Below, piece after piece: positions 2,987 to 62,304 of a stretch of 64,000 bases of DNA. Source of the DNA: Thiotrichaceae bacterium (GTDB lineage: Bacteria > Pseudomonadota > Gammaproteobacteria > Beggiatoales > Beggiatoaceae). Made by a program: the position numbers and the translations under genes. How positions within the stretch are numbered: the stretch's first letter is position 1; each line of letters opens with the position of its first letter. The stretch is taken from the NCBI GenBank assembly GCA_028688145.1, contig JAQTYU010000001.1:266284-330283 (forward strand). The letters are read 5' to 3'. The notes beneath the pieces are model-generated. The model saw only the letters and a program-made list of their open reading frames with translations. It was not told where the DNA came from and searched no databases.

Positions 2987-3660
2987 TTATACAAACACTT
3001 TGCTTAAGAGGGAGGACTGGCTAATCAGACCCATCAGGGTTTCAACCCCTGCACACATTTTCATGATTCCCTCAGTCACAGAACTTACCCCTGCAAACCT
3101 CAATAAGTTTAACCCAATACTCCGTAAAATACCCATCACCAAGGCTGAATTCGGTTTAGAGATTGCGCAGCTATCTTCTTTCAAAACAATATCCTTTACC
3201 CAGTGTAAGTTGTTCTCTATCCGCCTTGTATCCACTTTCCAAACATATAAGCACTCGCCTTCTCACTACTGAACTATCACTCTTGACCTGCTTTTTCCCA
3301 TGTGAACCTTCGCGATGGACTAAAACCAAACTACGTAAACCTGCTTATTTTTTACTATCAACTCTAGTGTTTTTGTGGAGTGCGTCTAAAGTAAATATAG
3401 CTTTCTCTACTTCAAACAAACTTAGTAAGGCTTGAACTTGATGAATCTCGCTCTGTTTGTTGTTTTCCAAAGTCCCAACCCGTAACATCAGATGAGTTTG
3501 ATGCCCAAAGAAACTCACTAAACTTGCAAAGTTCTGTTGCGAATCATGACAATGACTGACGGTGCTATTAATGCTTTTTCCATCAATGGCGATAAGCTCT
3601 GGCTTATAATGATTCAACATCCATTGATTAAATGCCTCACATAACTCTTGAACATCAAGA
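2987..3660 (-). mobile_element. degenerate ISAs1-family IS copy (transposase pseudogene, frameshifted)
   Basis: ORF fragments 3345-3620 (LIAIDGKSINSTVSHCHD...) and 2987-3235 (ENNLHWVKDIVLKEDSCAISK...) match the ISAs1/H-repeat transposase middle and C-terminus. Split over several frames. About 80% identical to a second copy at 49890-50760. Confidence 0.7.
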
Positions 3661-12535: not shown

Positions 12536-12594
12536 CAATCAGGCGCGGTATAAACTGGCTTTGCTGGTTTGAACTGCGCATTGATTTAAAAATG

Positions 12595-12650
12595 AACCCC
12601 GTCAGGTATCCAGTGAAAACTGGGGGCTTGGCGGGGTTTCTTTTATTATT
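12595..12650 (+). terminator. probable rho-independent terminator after groEL
   Basis: AACCCCG...CGGGGTT stem with an internal CCAGTG-AAAA-CTGG hairpin, followed by TCTTTTATT. Confidence 0.4.
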
Positions 12651-12752
12651 GAAATTTTATTTAGAAAATAACCTTAATTTTCACTTTTACAGCTTTGTAG
12701 ATTAAGGTATTATTTCCCAATCGTTTTTAATGTCTTTCAAGGATAACTAATT

Positions 12753-14972
12753 ATGATTGAATCTATTAAGCTCTCAAATATTGCCACATATAAAGCTTCA
12801 CAACATCTCAACGGCTTATCTCAATTTAATTTTATCTTTGGTGGTAATGGTTCAGGTAAAACAACTATTACAAAAGTTATTGCGGATGAGAATGCATTTC
12901 CAACCTGTTCAATTAGATGGAAAGACAATACTCCTCTACGAGCACTGGTTTACAATGAGGATTTTATCGCAAATCACTTTCATCAATCCGCAGAAATTAA
13001 AGGTATATTCACCCTTGGAAGCGAGAATCTGTCTATAGAAGAACAAATTAGAGGTAACAAAACAAAACTTGAAAAATTTCAAGAGAAAATCCTGAAAGCT
13101 GAAAATAATAAAAGTGCCAAACAAAGTGAACTATCAAGTTTAGAAGAAGAATTTAAGAATTTTTGTTGGAGCATTTATAGCAAACATAAAGACTCGCCCA
13201 TAGTTAGTGTTTTTGAGGGTCTTAGGAGTAAAAAAGAACTCTTCAAAAATGAAGTTCTTCAACAATCAGAAAATAATACTGACACATCGGAGTCCCTTGA
13301 ATTAGCGATTCTTGAGGAGAAGGCGAGGGTTATTTTTGGAAAAGATTTGGCTTTCGTAGGACTGATGTCAACTATTGACTCAGAAATAACAGATATTGTT
13401 AAGCATGAATCCAATTCTATCCTGAAAAAGTGCATATTAGGAAAGAATAATATTGATATCGCAAAAATTATTCAACAATTAGGTAATAGTGATTGGGTTA
13501 AAGCAGGTCGTGGTTTTTATGAAAAAATTGATCAGAAAATCTGTCCCTTTTGTCAACAAGAAACACAAAAACACTTCACCCAAAATTTAAGTGATTATTT
13601 TGATGAGACCTATCAGCTTGAAATGCAAGAGGTTGATAATCTCATTTCTGATTATGAGAGAGCTACAACTAAGTTGCAACAAAAGCTCAACATCATTCCA
13701 ACGTCTCCCACTGAATTTCTTGACATCTCCATTCTGGAAGATAAGAAGCGATTATTAGATTCTCGTTTGAGTATCAATAGTCAAAAACTATCTTTGAAGA
13801 AGAAAGAGCCTAGTCAAAGCGTTGCACTAGACTCTGTAAGCATAGTTTTATCTGAGATTAAAAATCTTATCGATTCTGCAAATGAACAGATTGAAAAACA
13901 TAATGCGCTTATTAGAAATCGAGTGGAAGAGAAAAACATTCTAAAATCTCAGGTATGGAAATATCTAGTTGGCATAGAGTTAAAGGATCGTCTCACACGT
14001 TACAATAAAGATAAAGATTCCTTATTAAAGGCAATTAAAGGGTTAGGGAAGAACATCGATAATTGGCGGAATGAAAAAAGTAACATAGACTCTGAAATCG
14101 CAAGGCTTCAAGAGCAAATCACCAGTATTCAGCCTACAATGGTTGGCATGAATAATATTTTAGCCTCTTTTGGTTTTCAGGGGTTTTCTTTTGTACAAGC
14201 AGACGGTGAGATAGCTGCTTATAAGTTAGTGCGTTCAGATGGAACGGATGCTAAAAGAACATTGAGCGAGGGCGAGAAGAGCTTCATTACTTTTTTGTAT
14301 TTTTATCATCTGATTAAGGGAAGTAATGCTGAAACAGGAGCAGCAGAAAATCGGGTTGTGGTGTTTGATGATCCCGTTTCTAGTTTAGACAGTGATATTT
14401 TATTTATTGTGTCGAGTCTAATAAAAGGTATTTTCAATGAAGTACGTAATCAGACAGGCTATATAAAACAAGTATTTATTTTTACGCATAACATTTATTT
14501 TCACAACGAAGTTACATTTAATGCCAAGCGCGCTCCTAATAGCATACTGAAAGAGGAAACTTTTTGGATTGTACGCAAGTTAGATTTAGTCACGAAACTA
14601 GAAAAACAAACATCTAACCCGATTAAAAACTCATATAATTTACTGTGGTCGGAAATTCGCAACAAAACATATTCAAATTTGAACATCCAAAATATATTAC
14701 GCAGAATACTTGAATATTATTTCAAATTATTAGGTGAGCTTGATTTCACACAATTCTGTGAATTGTTTGATGGGCGTGAAAAGATTATTTGTAATACATT
14801 AACTTCTCAGTTTCATGAAGGTTCACAACCTGCATATGATGATGCTTATGTCTCTAGCCAATATAATTCCACACCCGACACCTATTTACATGTATTCAAA
14901 GCGATTTTTGAAAAATCAGGGCATATCAAGCATTATGAAATGATGATGCGTACCTCCAATCAAGAAGCATAA
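12753..14972 (+). CDS. RloC-like anticodon nuclease: AAA_13-type ATPase with a coiled-coil zinc-hook insertion
   Basis: 739 aa. Walker A FGGNGSGKTT at the N-terminus. Long coiled-coil insert containing CPFC (a Rad50-like CxxC hook). ABC-like D-loop VVFDDPVSSLD. C-terminal RRILE...(34 aa)...H, the R-X3-E...H spacing of PrrC/RloC anticodon-nuclease domains. The gene is clearly more AT-rich than its neighbours. Confidence 0.65.
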   Translation: MIESIKLSNIATYKASQHLNGLSQFNFIFGGNGSGKTTITKVIADENAFPTCSIRWKDNTPLRALVYNEDFIANHFHQSAEIKGIFTLGSENLSIEEQIRGNKTKLEKFQEKILKAENNKSAKQSELSSLEEEFKNFCWSIYSKHKDSPIVSVFEGLRSKKELFKNEVLQQSENNTDTSESLELAILEEKARVIFGKDLAFVGLMSTIDSEITDIVKHESNSILKKCILGKNNIDIAKIIQQLGNSDWVKAGRGFYEKIDQKICPFCQQETQKHFTQNLSDYFDETYQLEMQEVDNLISDYERATTKLQQKLNIIPTSPTEFLDISILEDKKRLLDSRLSINSQKLSLKKKEPSQSVALDSVSIVLSEIKNLIDSANEQIEKHNALIRNRVEEKNILKSQVWKYLVGIELKDRLTRYNKDKDSLLKAIKGLGKNIDNWRNEKSNIDSEIARLQEQITSIQPTMVGMNNILASFGFQGFSFVQADGEIAAYKLVRSDGTDAKRTLSEGEKSFITFLYFYHLIKGSNAETGAAENRVVVFDDPVSSLDSDILFIVSSLIKGIFNEVRNQTGYIKQVFIFTHNIYFHNEVTFNAKRAPNSILKEETFWIVRKLDLVTKLEKQTSNPIKNSYNLLWSEIRNKTYSNLNIQNILRRILEYYFKLLGELDFTQFCELFDGREKIICNTLTSQFHEGSQPAYDDAYVSSQYNSTPDTYLHVFKAIFEKSGHIKHYEMMMRTSNQEA

Positions 14973-14987
14973 AAAAACCTCAATAAA

Positions 14988-15030
14988 ACAAAACCCATCA
15001 AGCACATTGTCCACTTGATGGGTTTTATTA
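14988..15030. terminator. bidirectional rho-independent terminator between convergent rloC-like and methyltransferase genes
   Basis: 11-bp perfect stem AACCCATCAAG/CTTGATGGGTT flanked by an A-run and a T-run. Confidence 0.6.
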
Positions 15031-15076
15031 TAAAAATAAGCAGGTTCTAAGCTGCTCAGTACAAGATTAGCGCAAA

Positions 15077-29040: not shown

Positions 29041-30189
29041 ATGTGTTATGTCTTGAAACATTTTGATACCCCCTTGCTTAAATTTACGCTGTCGCTTGAC
29101 CCCATAGACGGATGGTCTGTGAGTTTGCTTGAACTGAATGAAGCCCAAAGAAATTTATTACCGCTTGATTTAGAAGTCAGTTCTCAAGGAGTTTTAAAAT
29201 GGTTGCAACGTCGATTCATTCCCAAAAACAGGGCATTTGTGCACAGTTTTTTAGCAAAACTGGGCTTGAATCATAATGATATAAAAGGAATATTAGAAAT
29301 CTGTAAAGGACTTTCATTAACCGATTGTTATTGGGTGGTGGATGAAAGCTTTACGGGGAGTTTTAGCCAATATAATTTATATACGAATCGTTTTAATCAA
29401 ACCTTGGGATTAATTGCTTATACGGGCTATGGGGAGAGTGTACGCAGCGGTTTTACCTCTTCTCCAGAACTGACGACAGATGGGATGCTGGCGAAATGTT
29501 GGCGCAAAATAGATGAGAAAATTATTCTTTATAAGGCGGGTAGTACAGGGGCTGCAAATACAGGTAATGAACCTTATTCTGAATTTTACGCCGCTCAAAT
29601 CGCTAAGCAAATGGGCTTAAATGCCGTTGGTTATGAACTGCACCGATGGAAAAAACAGCTTTGTTCTACCTGTAAATTATTTACCAGCCAGCAATTTTCT
29701 TATATCCCCATAGGACGCTTGGTGAGGCAGGGCGGCTGGACAAATATCATTCATTATTATAAAAATTTAGGTGAAAATTATTATAATAATTTGATTGATA
29801 TGCTAATTTTTGATGCGGTGATTTGTAATGAAGACAGACATTTTGGTAATTTTGGACTCTTAATCGAAAATCAAACTAACCAGATTGTTGCAACTGCGCC
29901 CATTTTTGATAATGGTTTATCTTTGTTTAATTATGCAATGGCTGATGATTTAAAGAATATTAATATTTATGCAAAAACGCGTCTCATGCGAGATGGTCAA
30001 GATTTTATAGCGTTTGCGCGTGCTGTCATCACAAAAAGACAAAAGACACAATTACGCGCCTTAATTAATTTTCAATTTACGAGACACGCGCGTTATAACT
30101 TGCCCGATAAATGTTTAAAACTGATTGAGCAGTTTATTCAAAGCAGAGTCCAAGAACTTTTAGAGATTCCGTTACAGGGTGGTGAGTAG
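29041..30189 (+). CDS. HipA-family Ser/Thr protein kinase (HipA_C-type)
   Basis: 382 aa. Catalytic region LIFDAVICNEDRHFGNFGLL (NxDxHxxNF) and activation motif PIFDNGLSL. 40 nt downstream of the ATPase gene on the same strand. Confidence 0.65.
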   Translation: MCYVLKHFDTPLLKFTLSLDPIDGWSVSLLELNEAQRNLLPLDLEVSSQGVLKWLQRRFIPKNRAFVHSFLAKLGLNHNDIKGILEICKGLSLTDCYWVVDESFTGSFSQYNLYTNRFNQTLGLIAYTGYGESVRSGFTSSPELTTDGMLAKCWRKIDEKIILYKAGSTGAANTGNEPYSEFYAAQIAKQMGLNAVGYELHRWKKQLCSTCKLFTSQQFSYIPIGRLVRQGGWTNIIHYYKNLGENYYNNLIDMLIFDAVICNEDRHFGNFGLLIENQTNQIVATAPIFDNGLSLFNYAMADDLKNINIYAKTRLMRDGQDFIAFARAVITKRQKTQLRALINFQFTRHARYNLPDKCLKLIEQFIQSRVQELLEIPLQGGE

Positions 30190-30790: not shown

Positions 30791-31063
30791 TCCTGCTCTC
30801 CTTATTGGGTAAAATAATGTGTAATCACCATTATGAATAATAGAAGTAGTCCGTATAAAACACCATGTAATACGGGAAATTAAATGAAAGTGTTGCTACT
30901 TTTCCCACATCAAATAATCCCAATTGAGTTACGCCCCTATTTTCTGCATACTAGCTACGGGTATTAATAGCTTTTCTCAGCGGTCGGGGTTCTGTATACC
31001 CCACTGGCGCACTGCTCCTGAAAATTGGGGCGGCGTGTACCGAGAAATAGCTTATATCCTCCG

Positions 31064-31135
31064 TCCAATAAGCTCTATTGGTGAGCGGATTACAAAATAA
31101 TCAGGTGCAGGTTCGATTCCCGCATTGGACTCCAA
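31064..31135 (+). tRNA. tRNA-like sequence (probable tRNA pseudogene; anticodon arm about 2 nt short)
   Basis: Perfect 7-bp acceptor stem GTCCAAT/ATTGGAC, D-arm GCTC-TATTGGT-GAGC, T-arm GCAGG-TTCGATT-CCCGC, discriminator plus encoded CCA. Only 19 nt are available for the anticodon arm plus variable loop, where at least 21 are needed. Confidence 0.45.
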
Positions 31136-31136
31136 G

Positions 31137-31208
31137 CTAAGGTAGCTCATTTGGTAGAGCAGTTGACTTTAATCAACCTGTAGTAGGTTCGATTCCTACC
31201 CTAAATCC
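31137..31208 (+). tRNA. tRNA-Lys(UUU)-like sequence (probable pseudogene; 6-nt anticodon loop CTTTAA, acceptor stem mismatched)
   Basis: TAGCTCATTTGGTAGAGCAGTTGACTTTAATCAAC matches E. coli tRNA-Lys through the anticodon stem but lacks one T of the CTTTTAA loop. T-arm GTAGG-TTCGATT-CCTAC is intact. The 3' acceptor strand pairs poorly. Confidence 0.4.
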
Positions 31209-60455: not shown

Positions 60456-60626
60456 TTTTCTGAACCGCAATTCACATAATTTTCACAATGACCACAATTA
60501 AATATGAAATAATTATCTTTTAATTGTGTGAATTATGAGAATTGCGTAAATTGTGGTTCAGACAAAAGCCGAGTTTTAAAGCTCGGCTTTTTTATTTTGG
60601 GGCTACTTTTCTACAAGGATTATTTT

Positions 60627-61796
60627 ATGAATGTGCCGAAATTGCGTTTTAAAGATGATAACGGGCTGGATTTTCCTGAGTGGGAAGAGAAAAAAATAGG
60701 GCAGTTACTACAAGTCACCACAGGAGCTAGAGATACTCAAAACAAGGTTGATAACGGCGTATATCCGTTTTTTGTGCGTTCTCAAACAGTGGAAAGAATT
60801 AATTCTTTTTCTTATGACGGTGAGGCAATTTTAACATCAGGTGATGGTGTTGGGGTTGGTAAAAACTTTCACTACATCAATGGTAAATTTGATTATCATC
60901 AACGTGTTTATTGCTTGTCAAAATTCAATAGTAATGCGTTAGGGAAATACGTATATTTCTACTTTTCCACATTTTTTAATAAAAGAGTTATGCGATTAAG
61001 TGCAAAAAATTCTGTCGATTCTGTTCGTATGGATATGATTGTAGATATGCCCATTTATATTCCAACAGTTGAAGAACAAACCAAAATCGCCAATTTCCTC
61101 ACAGCAGTTGACGACAAAATTGCAGAACTCACGAAAAAAGTAGCCTTATTACAGCGTTATAAAAAAGGCGTAATGCAGCAGATTTTCAGCCAGCAACTGC
61201 GTTTTAAAGATGACAATGGGCAGGATTTTCCTGAGTGGGAAGAGAAAACACTGGGAGAAATATCTAATATATATGACGGTACACACATGACTCCCGACTA
61301 TCAAAAATCAGGGATTCCTTTCTACAGTGTTGAACATATCACAAGTAATAATTTTGCGAACACCAAATTTATCGCTCAGGAAGTTTTTGAACGGGAAAAT
61401 AAAAGAGTAAAGCTTGAAAAAGGTGATCTACTAATGACTAAAATTGGAGATATTGGCACAGTCAAATACATTGATTGGGATGTTGAAGCCTCTTTCTATG
61501 TTAGTTTGGCGTTAATAAAACAATCTGAAAAAGCTAATTTTTTATATGTATCTCATTACATTAGAACTGGCGCATTTCAAAGAGAATTGCATAACAGAAC
61601 TATTCATGTTGCTTTCCCTAAAAAAATTAACTTGGGTGAAATTGGCAACTGCATAGTAAAATTACCTTGTGAAAAAGAACAAACCAAAATCGCCAATTTC
61701 CTCAGCGCACTCGACGAACAAATAAACACCAGCCAGCAGCAACTCAATTTAAGCAAGCAATACAAACAAAGCTTGTTACAACAAATGTTTATTTAA
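60627..61796 (+). CDS. hsdS: type I restriction-modification specificity subunit HsdS (orphan)
   Basis: Two target-recognition domains. Each is preceded by the repeat LRFKDDNG(L/Q)DFPEWEEK and followed by EEQTKIANFL(T/S)A(V/L)D, the conserved HsdS repeat regions. AT-rich. No hsdM or hsdR in the window. Confidence 0.8.
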   Translation: MNVPKLRFKDDNGLDFPEWEEKKIGQLLQVTTGARDTQNKVDNGVYPFFVRSQTVERINSFSYDGEAILTSGDGVGVGKNFHYINGKFDYHQRVYCLSKFNSNALGKYVYFYFSTFFNKRVMRLSAKNSVDSVRMDMIVDMPIYIPTVEEQTKIANFLTAVDDKIAELTKKVALLQRYKKGVMQQIFSQQLRFKDDNGQDFPEWEEKTLGEISNIYDGTHMTPDYQKSGIPFYSVEHITSNNFANTKFIAQEVFERENKRVKLEKGDLLMTKIGDIGTVKYIDWDVEASFYVSLALIKQSEKANFLYVSHYIRTGAFQRELHNRTIHVAFPKKINLGEIGNCIVKLPCEKEQTKIANFLSALDEQINTSQQQLNLSKQYKQSLLQQMFI

Positions 61797-61876: not shown

Positions 61877-62304
61877 TTATTTCTTAGCGGGTTCATCTTC
61901 TAAAAACGCGGCAAGTTTTTTAAAGCCATTTAACCGAGTGGCTTTCTTATCAAATGTAAGCGTCACTGAACATCCACTGCTTTGATTATTAAGACCTATC
62001 AACGCATCCGAAAAATCGAAGCCTTTGCGATACTGTGCCACGGCTTGCCATGCATTTCCCGAGTTTTCAATTGCTAAACCTTGCGTTTCCATGAGTTGCT
62101 GCAAAACATCTGCAATTTCTACAGATGAATAACGATAAGCACTTTCCAACACCCAAACCAATTCACACAAAACAATATTACTGATATAACAAGGTTCATT
62201 CAGCGAGCAGTAATGCTGAAAAAATTGTTGTGCAAGTTACGACTGTTTCACATCATCATTAACCAAATAACGGACTAAAACATTCGTATCAACACCTATC
62301 ATTT
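61877..62304 (-). pseudogene. vapC: vapC (PIN-domain toxin) interrupted by an in-frame TAA
   Basis: MIGVDTNVLVRYLVNDDVKQS-TAA-LAQQFFQ...CELVWVLESAY... The reading frame is continuous across the stop at about 62243-62245. The start overlaps the vapB stop as ATGA. Confidence 0.55.

What the first reader, a model, noticed from the sequence alone, without database searches (positions are those of the whole stretch)
12753..14972. RloC-like zinc-hook anticodon nuclease on an AT-rich islet between groESL and a methyltransferase gene
The 739-aa product has the RloC domain architecture. It has an N-terminal Walker A ATPase, a long coiled-coil insertion with a CPFC motif (a Rad50-style CxxC zinc hook), an ABC D-loop, and a C-terminal RRILE...H motif with PrrC/RloC-like R-X3-E...H spacing. 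PrrC is normally embedded in a type I R-M locus; this copy is solitary, and the only type I R-M remnant is an orphan hsdS 46 kb away. The gene is markedly more AT-rich than groEL and the downstream methyltransferase and is bracketed by strong terminators, which fits horizontal acquisition. It is a plausible abortive-infection or tRNA-cleaving defence gene in an unexpected housekeeping context.
Basis: partly seen in the sequence, partly recalled or inferred. Interest (0 to 1): 0.7.

Follow-up and report, generated by a model that had tools for sequence, protein, structure and literature searches.

The report
RloC-family gene lacking its catalytic histidine
This is a real member of the known RloC family of bacterial tRNA-cutting defence proteins on a small imported AT-rich islet, but this copy has glutamine where the family's catalytic histidine sits, so it is probably a disarmed or weakened version.

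Summary
ORF 12753..14972 (+, 739 aa) is real. By descent it is an RloC-family protein. It matches Pfam AAA_13 over its full length (545 bits) and PADLOC PDC-S06 (855 bits). It aligns end to end (E = 6e-138) with the Shewanella ANA-3 plasmid protein listed as an RloC orthologue in the founding 2008 paper. All ABC-ATPase motifs and the CPFCQ hook are conserved, and the predicted fold is closest to Rad50/SMC. The islet is the lowest-GC 2.2 kb in the window (GC 0.339, z = -3.6), lies between strong hairpin terminators, and is present or absent among close relatives.

The claimed intact R-X3-E...H triad does not hold. The family's triad His (X37 after Glu, preceded by Ser) is Gln692 here. That column is His in 118/120 close homologues, 142/146 diverse representatives and 80/80 metagenome loci. 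In this protein's small clade, 3 of 4 alleles carry a different triad disruption (H->Q, H->N, E->K), yet the ORFs are intact and dN/dS is 0.1-0.3.

A solitary location is normal for RloC, and the neighbouring methyltransferase is a small-molecule type. Verdict: an ordinary family, most likely with a weakened or dead nuclease. Interest is modest.

The parts
12594..12650 (+). groEL intrinsic terminator (hairpin 12594-12639, then a U-rich tail), forming the left edge of the AT-rich islet
   Evidence: RNA fold -33.2 kcal/mol, z = -6.5, followed by UUUCUUUUAUU
12686..12713 (+). Promoter-like site TTTACA-16-TATTAT upstream of the ORF. It is a consensus match only. AAGGA lies 8 nt before the ATG
   Evidence: (10/12 match; the number of such sites is not above shuffled expectation)
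12753..14972 (+). RloC-family ORF, 739 aa plus stop
   Evidence: Pfam AAA_13 545 bits full length; PADLOC PDC-S06 855 bits; 35% identity, E = 6e-138, end to end with Shewanella ANA-3 RloC orthologue no. 60
12840..12863 (+). Walker A / P-loop GGNGSGKT (aa 30-37)
   Evidence: G30, G35, K36, T37 in 120/120
13017..14129 (+). Alpha-helical (coiled-coil type) insert between the two ATPase lobes, aa 89-459. Highly divergent: 37-48% identical to every relative, including clade mates
   Evidence: AlphaFold secondary structure; segment identities
13542..13553 (+). CPFC zinc-hook motif (aa 264-267) in the central loop of the insert
   Evidence: C264, P265 and C267 invariant or nearly so in 146 representatives; in register with the hook of the ANA-3 orthologue and with the GkaRloC hook in the 2008 supplementary alignment
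14262..14279 (+). ABC signature LSEGEK (aa 504-509)
14355..14390 (+). Walker B and D-loop VVVFDDPVSSLD (aa 535-546)
14487..14489 (+). H-loop (linchpin) His579
   Evidence: 146/146 His
14553..14969 (+). C-terminal domain, aa 601-739: a beta-hairpin (602-619) followed by an all-helical nuclease-type region (helices from 627 on)
   Evidence: AlphaFold secondary structure; matches the AAA_13 C-terminal part, 83 bits on its own
14700..14714 (+). RRILE: triad Arg650 and Glu654, both conserved
   Evidence: R650 145/146; E654 143 E plus 3 D
14826..14828 (+). Codon CAA = Gln692 at the family's triad-His position (Ser691 precedes it)
14922..14933 (+). Conserved C-terminal GHxxHY (His724, invariant His727); role unknown
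   Evidence: H727 146/146
14984..15032 (.). Inverted repeat (folded stem 14990-15026) between the convergent RloC and methyltransferase genes, forming the right edge of the islet. A similar hairpin is visible by eye in relative L011, which lacks RloC
   Evidence: (I3)

Best explanation
The gene encodes a true homologue of RloC. RloC is a Rad50-like ABC ATPase whose two lobes are split by a long helical insert carrying a CxxC zinc hook, fused to a C-terminal PrrC/RloC-type anticodon-nuclease domain.

In characterised RloC (Geobacillus and Acinetobacter proteins, from the literature), the hook and the DNA-dependent ATPase form an internal switch. DNA ends plus ATP hydrolysis release the nuclease. 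The nuclease then excises the wobble nucleotide of tRNAs and stalls translation.

The gene sits on a roughly 2.4-kb horizontally acquired AT-rich islet that looks like its own transcription unit, dropped between the groEL terminator and a convergent small-molecule methyltransferase.

Shown here: every ATPase motif and the hook are intact, but the catalytic His of the Arg-Glu-His triad is replaced by Gln inside a patch of lineage-specific substitutions.

Inferred: the sensor and switch half is probably functional, while the nuclease is dead or strongly weakened. That would make it a 'detoxified' RloC allele that can no longer, or only feebly, cut tRNA.
For: - Family: AAA_13 full length; PDC-S06; relatives named 'wobble nucleotide-excising tRNase' by JGI.
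- End-to-end alignment with Shewanella ANA-3 WP_011711575.1. This protein is 746 aa and IS200-flanked, matching orthologue no. 60 in the 2008 Table S1. Its sequence matches the Q369M3_9GAMM row aligned with GkaRloC.
- Triad rule from the literature: R-X3-E-X36-52-His, with Ser often before His. R692A, E696A and H737A each abolish GkaRloC activity and toxicity.
- The ANA-3 orthologue has R651/E655/S-H694 (X38), and the window's Q692 aligns with that His.
- The column is His in 118/120, 142/146 and 80/80 relatives.
- The change is not a lone base error: 692-695 read QPAY against HFLH in the nearest alleles. With P0002 as outgroup, the C-domain has 22 window-specific against 5 L010-specific changes (chi-square 10.7, p = 0.001), while the ATPase lobe has 10 against 7.
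- The same protein sequence appears in an independent Logan assembly.
- Accessory islet: lowest GC in the window. L010 has RloC at this site and L011 does not.
Against: - No activity was measured.
- I could not retrieve the GkaRloC, AbaRloC or PrrC sequences. The equivalence of Q692 with GkaRloC H737 therefore rests on the published spacing rule, the preceding Ser, column conservation, and the ANA-3 orthologue as a bridge.
The 689-700 loop is also the least confident part of the model.
- Gln, the nearby His688, or the invariant His727 might sustain some catalysis.
- dN/dS of 0.1-0.3 shows the protein, including the C-domain, is still constrained. That fits a functional protein better than a decaying one.
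- The gene is a recombination mosaic. The 'window-specific' excess could therefore reflect an imported divergent segment rather than relaxed selection in place.
Confidence: 0.6

Rival explanations
1. Fully active RloC anticodon nuclease. On this view the protein senses DNA damage or phage attack and cleaves tRNA anticodon loops normally, with Gln692, His688 or His727 covering the catalytic role.
For: - All other family-defining residues are intact.
- The ORF is intact and dN/dS is low.
- His688 lies four residues upstream, and His724 and His727 are conserved.
Against: - H737A alone abolishes GkaRloC activity and toxicity.
- His688 co-occurs with His692 in 53 of 120 relatives, so it is not a compensating change.
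- No other sequence among more than 340 relatives uses Gln at this column.
Confidence: 0.2
2. Sequencing or assembly artefact, or a minority variant. On this view the real population allele has His at codon 692 (CAY read as CAA).
For: - The source is a metagenome-assembled genome.
- His to Gln needs a single third-position change.
- The exact protein is known from only one sample lineage.
Against: - The adjacent residues 693-695 and about ten others in 681-712 also differ from the nearest alleles.
- An identical protein appears in the NCBI MAG and in a Logan assembly.
- Two sister alleles carry their own, different triad disruptions.
Confidence: 0.08
3. Not RloC but another coiled-coil ABC ATPase of defence systems, such as Lamassu LmuB, PARIS AriA or Septu/retron PtuA, that needs a partner effector gene.
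For: - Weak PADLOC matches to LmuB, AriA and PtuA.
- Structural matches to LmuB, AriA and PtuA heads.
Against: - Those matches cover only the shared ATPase head and are tens of orders of magnitude weaker than the AAA_13, PDC-S06 and ANA-3 RloC matches.
- No partner gene is present: the ORF is bounded by terminators, groEL and a convergent metabolic methyltransferase.
- The C-terminal RRILE...GS[H] domain is part of the same polypeptide.
Confidence: 0.03

Closest known systems
RloC of Geobacillus kaustophilus (YP_146738, 804 aa) and Acinetobacter baylyi ADP1 (YP_044948, 826 aa), the characterised wobble-nucleotide-excising anticodon nucleases (PMC2610378, PMC3458546, PMC3874168)
   Same: - Same architecture: ABC-ATPase motifs, central CxxC in a helical insert, and a C-terminal domain with R-X3-E.
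- Usually solitary.
- Laterally mobile.
   Different: - The window protein is shorter (739 aa) and belongs to the roughly 740-aa subfamily.
- The triad His is Gln.
Shewanella sp. ANA-3 plasmid RloC orthologue (YP_863754 / WP_011711575.1, 746 aa)
   Same: - 35% identity over the full length, E = 6e-138.
- Hook CPFCQQ, RRI[IL]E and the GHxxHY tail are all in register.
   Different: - ANA-3 keeps the Ser-His of the triad.
- It sits next to a divergent type I R-M operon and an IS200/IS605 element on a conjugative plasmid.
PrrC anticodon nuclease of E. coli
   Same: - ABC-type NTPase followed by a nuclease domain with an Arg/Glu/His triad.
- The PADLOC PrrC model matches residues 498-688 (E = 3e-11).
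- Some 50%-identical relatives are embedded in type I R-M operons in the PrrC manner (P0080).
   Different: - PrrC is about 396 aa with no coiled-coil or hook insert, and is always linked to a type I R-M locus.
- The window gene has the insert and no R-M neighbours.
Rad50 / SbcC / SMC ATPases
   Same: - CxxC hook in a helical insert.
- Sub-threshold profile matches to Rad50 hook structures at the CPFC position (E about 0.3).
   Different: - No Mre11/SbcD partner gene.
- A much shorter insert.
- An extra C-terminal nuclease-type domain.
PADLOC candidate system PDC-S06
   Same: The window protein is a full-length, top-scoring match to model PDLC04890.
   Different: PDC-S06 is only an untested 'phage defence candidate' label. 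The papers that mention it use it only as an annotation. Judging by this protein, it overlaps the RloC/AAA_13 family.

Membership tests
RloC (Davidov & Kaufmann 2008 screening criteria) | [quoted passage not shown] | tested here: met
   All are present and sit in invariant family columns.
RloC (Davidov & Kaufmann 2008 screening criteria) | CxxC zinc-hook motif in a central loop of a largely alpha-helical insert within the ATPase domain | tested here: met
   C264PFC267 lies in loop 259-272 between long helices of the insert at aa 89-459. It is invariant and in register with the ANA-3 and GkaRloC hooks. Zinc binding itself was not tested.
RloC (Davidov & Kaufmann 2008 screening criteria) | Putative ACNase triad Arg-X3-Glu-X36-52-His (Ser often before His) | tested here: not met
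   R650 and E654 are present. The His column (X37, after Ser691) is Gln692. The 2008 table keeps a few such proteins, flagged 'poor ACNase triad'.
RloC (Davidov & Kaufmann 2008 screening criteria) | Full-length homology to a listed RloC orthologue | tested here: met
   E = 6e-138 and 99% coverage against Shewanella ANA-3 orthologue no. 60.
RloC (functional definition) | Excises the tRNA wobble nucleotide; the nuclease is governed by Zn2+, DNA ends and ATP hydrolysis | not testable with these tools
   This needs expression and tRNA cleavage assays.
PrrC | Roughly 400-aa NTPase plus nuclease without a coiled-coil insert | tested here: not met
   The protein is 739 aa with a 370-aa helical insert.
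PrrC | Gene embedded in a type I R-M (hsdMSR) locus | tested here: not met
   The neighbours are groESL and a CMAS/Methyltransf_11 methyltransferase. The only hsd gene in the window is an orphan hsdS 45.6 kb away.
HEPN superfamily (Anantharaman et al. 2013 place the PrrC/RloC nuclease domains here) | All-alpha domain with an Rx4-6H motif | tested here: inconclusive
   The region from residue 627 on is all helical. No Arg lies 4-6 residues before position 692 or before His727 in the family consensus. Fold searches were dominated by the ATPase head. No Pfam HEPN model matched the C-terminal 150 aa.
Rad50/SbcC | Works with an adjacent Mre11/SbcD nuclease gene | tested here: not met
   No such gene flanks the ORF.

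The most novel reading that the evidence does not exclude
The window protein may belong to a small RloC clade that has repeatedly given up nuclease catalysis. Three of its four known alleles carry independent triad disruptions: H692Q here, H692N in P0003 and E654K in P0002. None of the other 117 close homologues, and none of 80 metagenome loci, has one. All the ORFs remain intact and under purifying selection, and the coiled-coil/hook module is swapped or highly divergent.

That pattern would point to a nuclease-independent role for the Rad50-like sensor plus a tRNA-binding but non-cutting C-domain. Possible roles include a reversible translation brake, a DNA-end sensor, or a dominant-negative partner that tempers active RloC alleles.
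Probability: 0.15. Interest if true: 0.6.

Novelty: new member of a known kind. Interest (0 to 1): 0.33.

Why it matters
The assignment itself is routine. Automated pipelines already label the homologues as RloC-type tRNases, and a solitary location is typical for this family.

The useful outcome is a caution. Calling this gene an active tRNA-cleaving defence from its architecture alone would probably be wrong, because the one residue whose mutation is known to kill RloC is changed.

If the recurrent triad loss in this clade is real, it offers a natural set of sensor-intact, effector-dead alleles. These could help separate RloC's DNA-sensing switch from its nuclease. The highly divergent coiled-coil module between near-identical genomic backgrounds also marks that module as the likely target of diversifying exchange.

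Tried and rejected
1. I tried to recover full-length GkaRloC by searching with the OCR'd fragment from the 2008 supplementary figure.
2. PDB sequence searches with the single protein and with a 147-sequence profile found no solved RloC or PrrC. They returned only P-loop, coiled-coil and sub-threshold Rad50-hook matches.
4. The first AlphaFold run, with 21 close sequences, was poor (pLDDT 66). It was replaced by a 147-sequence run (pLDDT 90.5).
5. I looked for insertion signatures. There is no tRNA, integrase or convincing direct repeat at the islet edges. The only candidate is a 15-nt, 87% repeat in the two terminator tails, which I judged to be chance.
6. L011 is not a clean empty site. It has an unrelated SDR/epimerase gene in place of RloC, and the contig ends before any groEL.
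7. The metagenome scan with the conserved C-terminal half found no further members of the window's own clade (best 64% identity). The 3-of-4 triad-loss count therefore could not be enlarged, and the scan served only as a background sample.
8. I considered that the methyltransferase might be an R-M remnant, and rejected this on its Pfam matches.
9. I considered Lamassu, PARIS and Septu ATPases, and rejected them (see rival explanations).
Full report
**Observation.** The listed sequence motifs are all present:
- Walker A G30GNGSGKT37
- one CxxC, C264PFC267
- ABC signature L504SEGEK
- Walker B/D-loop V535VVFDDPVSSLD546
- H-loop His579
- R650RILE654

The gene is the most AT-rich 2.2-kb stretch of the whole 64-kb window. 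Its GC is 0.339 and GC3 0.289, against a window mean of 0.435 (z = -3.6). The only other comparably AT-rich patch is the hsdS gene at 60528..61796.

Two hairpins bracket the gene. The groEL terminator folds at -33.2 kcal/mol (z = -6.5) and is followed by a U-run. The 13-bp hairpin at 14990-15026 folds at -17 kcal/mol (z = -3.9), reads as a terminator on both strands, and is shared with the convergent downstream gene.

A promoter-like TTTACA-16-TATTAT (12686-12713) and an AAGGA Shine-Dalgarno sequence precede the ATG. Promoter-like sites are no more frequent here than in shuffled sequence, so this is weak evidence.

The hsdS claim holds. That ORF has two Methylase_S domains. YcjX and DUF697 genes lie upstream, and no hsdM or hsdR lies downstream.

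**What the protein is.**
- It matches Pfam AAA_13 over the whole model (545 bits, E = 3e-163).
- It matches PADLOC candidate family PDC-S06 over its full length (855 bits). It also gives a partial match to the PrrC model (E = 4e-10).
- An identical protein exists in a Thiotrichaceae MAG. Hundreds of homologues about 50% identical occur across many phyla, and JGI's pipeline names many of them 'wobble nucleotide-excising tRNase'.
- An exhaustive search finds 3,717 clusters at the 50% level with E <= 1e-3.
- A confident AlphaFold model (pLDDT 90.5, pTM 0.64) shows a split ABC head, a helical insert spanning about aa 89-459 with CPFC in a central loop/beta-hairpin, and a C-terminal region that is helical from residue 627 on.
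- No RloC or PrrC structure is in the PDB by sequence.

**Direct membership test.** The founding paper (PMC2610378) defined RloC orthologues by three features: ABC-ATPase motifs, a CxxC, and the putative nuclease triad Arg-X3-Glu-X36-52-His, 'where Ser often precedes His'. It showed that R692A, E696A and H737A each abolish GkaRloC activity and toxicity.

I could not retrieve GkaRloC itself. Orthologue no. 60 of that paper's table is a 746-aa protein on Shewanella sp. ANA-3 plasmid 1, flanked by IS200/IS605, and it is in the plasmid collection. Its sequence matches the Q369M3_9GAMM row that the authors aligned with the GkaRloC hook.

It aligns with the window protein end to end (35% identity, E = 6e-138). 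The hook CPFCQQ, RRI[IL]E and the C-terminal GHxxHY are all in register. So by descent the window protein belongs to the RloC family.

**The triad is not intact.** In the ANA-3 orthologue the triad is R651/E655/Ser-His694 (X38). The window protein aligns Gln692 with that His: 'HEGSQPAYDD' against 'NDGSHCLPDD'. The codon is CAA at 14826-14828. Frequencies of His at that column are:

| Sample | His at column 692 |
|---|---|
| Closest homologues | 118 of 120 |
| Diverse 50%-cluster representatives | 142 of 146 |
| Independent metagenome loci | 80 of 80 |

Ser691, Arg650 and Glu654 are essentially invariant. That column is variable (N in 65 and H in 53 of 120) and co-occurs with His692 in other members, so it is not a replacement.

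**Is it an error or a decaying gene?** A single-base error is unlikely. Residues 692-695 read QPAY where the nearest alleles read HFLH, and about a dozen other changes cluster in 681-712. The same protein is also found in an independent Logan assembly.

A very close relative, L010, has a methyltransferase 99% identical and flanks 86-96% identical at DNA level. It carries RloC at the same position with an intact Ser-His.

With P0002 as outgroup, lineage-specific changes are as follows:

| Region | Window-specific | L010-specific | Test |
|---|---|---|---|
| Nuclease domain (601-739) | 22 | 5 | chi-square 10.7, p = 0.001 |
| ATPase C-lobe (460-600) | 10 | 7 | not significant |

However, dN/dS stays at 0.1-0.3 in all segments, and the ORF and all ATPase and hook residues are intact. 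So the gene is not a freely decaying pseudogene.

The gene is also a mosaic. The helical insert is only 37-48% identical to every relative, while clade mates are 62-77% identical to each other there. Synonymous divergence in the insert is saturated. The two ATPase lobes are 75-86% identical. Recombination could therefore explain part of the asymmetry.

**A pattern in the clade.** The three closest full-length or partial relatives are P0002 (59%), P0003 (58%) and the L010 fragment (63%).
- P0003 has Asn at position 692.
- P0002 has Lys at the triad Glu ('RRILK').
- Only L010 is intact.

These are three different single-nucleotide events in 3 of 4 alleles. None of the other 117 close homologues has such a disruption. 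The metagenome scan found no further members of this clade, so the count stays small. The 2008 table already flags a few orthologues as having a 'poor ACNase triad', so the phenomenon is not unprecedented.

**Context.** For RloC, a solitary position is the norm: 8 of 72 genes were R-M-linked in 2008. The homologues I sampled lie in these contexts:

| Homologue | Context |
|---|---|
| P0080 | Type I operon hsdM-Fic-hsdS-RloC-hsdR |
| P0018 | Type III-like island with RhuM and an integrase |
| P0022 | Mu-like prophage |
| P0053 | Beside a TIR protein and toxin-antitoxin genes |
| P0002, P0051 | Alone among housekeeping genes |

The downstream 'methyltransferase' is a Methyltransf_11/CMAS-type enzyme on the opposite strand, not a DNA methylase.

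Horizontal acquisition is supported by composition and by presence/absence. L011 (methyltransferase 97% identical) has a similar hairpin after the methyltransferase gene, visible by eye, but an unrelated SDR-type gene instead of RloC. No integrase, tRNA or clear target duplication marks the islet.

**Mechanism.** For the family, the mechanism comes from the literature (PMC3458546, PMC3874168). Intramolecular zinc-hook joints keep the nuclease silent. Binding of DNA ends and ATP hydrolysis by the Rad50-like head release it. The nuclease then excises the wobble nucleotide of tRNAs such as tRNA-Glu and tRNA-Gln and halts translation.

For this allele, I infer that the sensor and switch half is intact, but the effector lacks its essential His and is dead or much weakened. 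What is shown is the motifs, the alignment and the conservation. What is inferred is the loss of activity.

**Verdict.** This is a correct family call on an ordinary, already-catalogued defence family, in a typical solitary, horizontally acquired setting. The one notable twist is a disrupted catalytic triad, which recurs in the immediate clade. I file it as a new member of a known kind. Interest is modest.

Noticed in passing
window 31063-31134 and 31136-31208 (+): Two tandem tRNA-like genes with odd anticodon loops. ARAGORN calls them 'tRNA-Phe(aaa)' and 'tRNA-???(tt)', and their Rfam tRNA scores are low (38 and 48 bits). The second has stem GTTGA/TCAAC around a 6-nt loop CTTTAA, which is a tRNA-Lys(UUU) loop (CTTTTAA) missing one T. 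tRNA-Lys(UUU) is the classical PrrC/RloC substrate. This could be a homopolymer assembly error, a pseudo-tRNA or a nuclease-evading variant. The neighbours are a HipA-like kinase and a Band-7 protein, with no integrase.
   Followed up: partly
window 13017-14129 compared with L010: The RloC helical/hook insert is a recombination mosaic. It is 52-69% identical at DNA level to the allele in a relative whose flanking genes are 86-96% identical. The identity jumps to about 88% at roughly codon 459, where the ATPase C-lobe begins.
   Followed up: partly
window 60528-61796 (+) and about 61880-62236 (-): The orphan hsdS (two Methylase_S domains) sits on its own AT-rich patch (GC 0.352), the only other low-GC spot in the window. 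Immediately downstream on the minus strand is a 119-aa open frame that looks PIN/VapC-like by eye; this was not tested.
   Followed up: partly
L011 about 3230-3470: In the relative that lacks RloC, the spacer between the methyltransferase terminator and the SDR-type gene holds a roughly 27-bp inverted repeat (GGGTGGAATAGCGTAGCGTATTCCACC ... GGTGGAATACGCTACGCTATTCCACCC) flanking about 200 bp. It looks like a miniature mobile element.
   Followed up: no
L004 3374-13684; L008 68-15978: Relatives about 50% identical to the window protein sit inside R-M operons. One order is hsdM-Fic-hsdS-RloC-hsdR, where the hsdR carries a GIY-YIG insert. The other is SNF2-SNF2-DUF2130-RloC-N6_N4 methylase-RhuM-ResIII-integrase. 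These match the Fic/Doc and RhuM associations described for RloC-like ABC-HEPN genes.
   Followed up: partly
window 29041-30189 (+): A HipA-like kinase ORF (HipA_C, E = 4e-7, just under Pfam's cut-off) lies upstream of the odd tRNA pair. It may be the toxin of a toxin-antitoxin pair.
   Followed up: no
window 14922-14933 (aa 724-727): A C-terminal GHxxHY motif with His727 invariant in 146/146 family representatives. It is not part of the published triad and its role is unknown.
   Followed up: no
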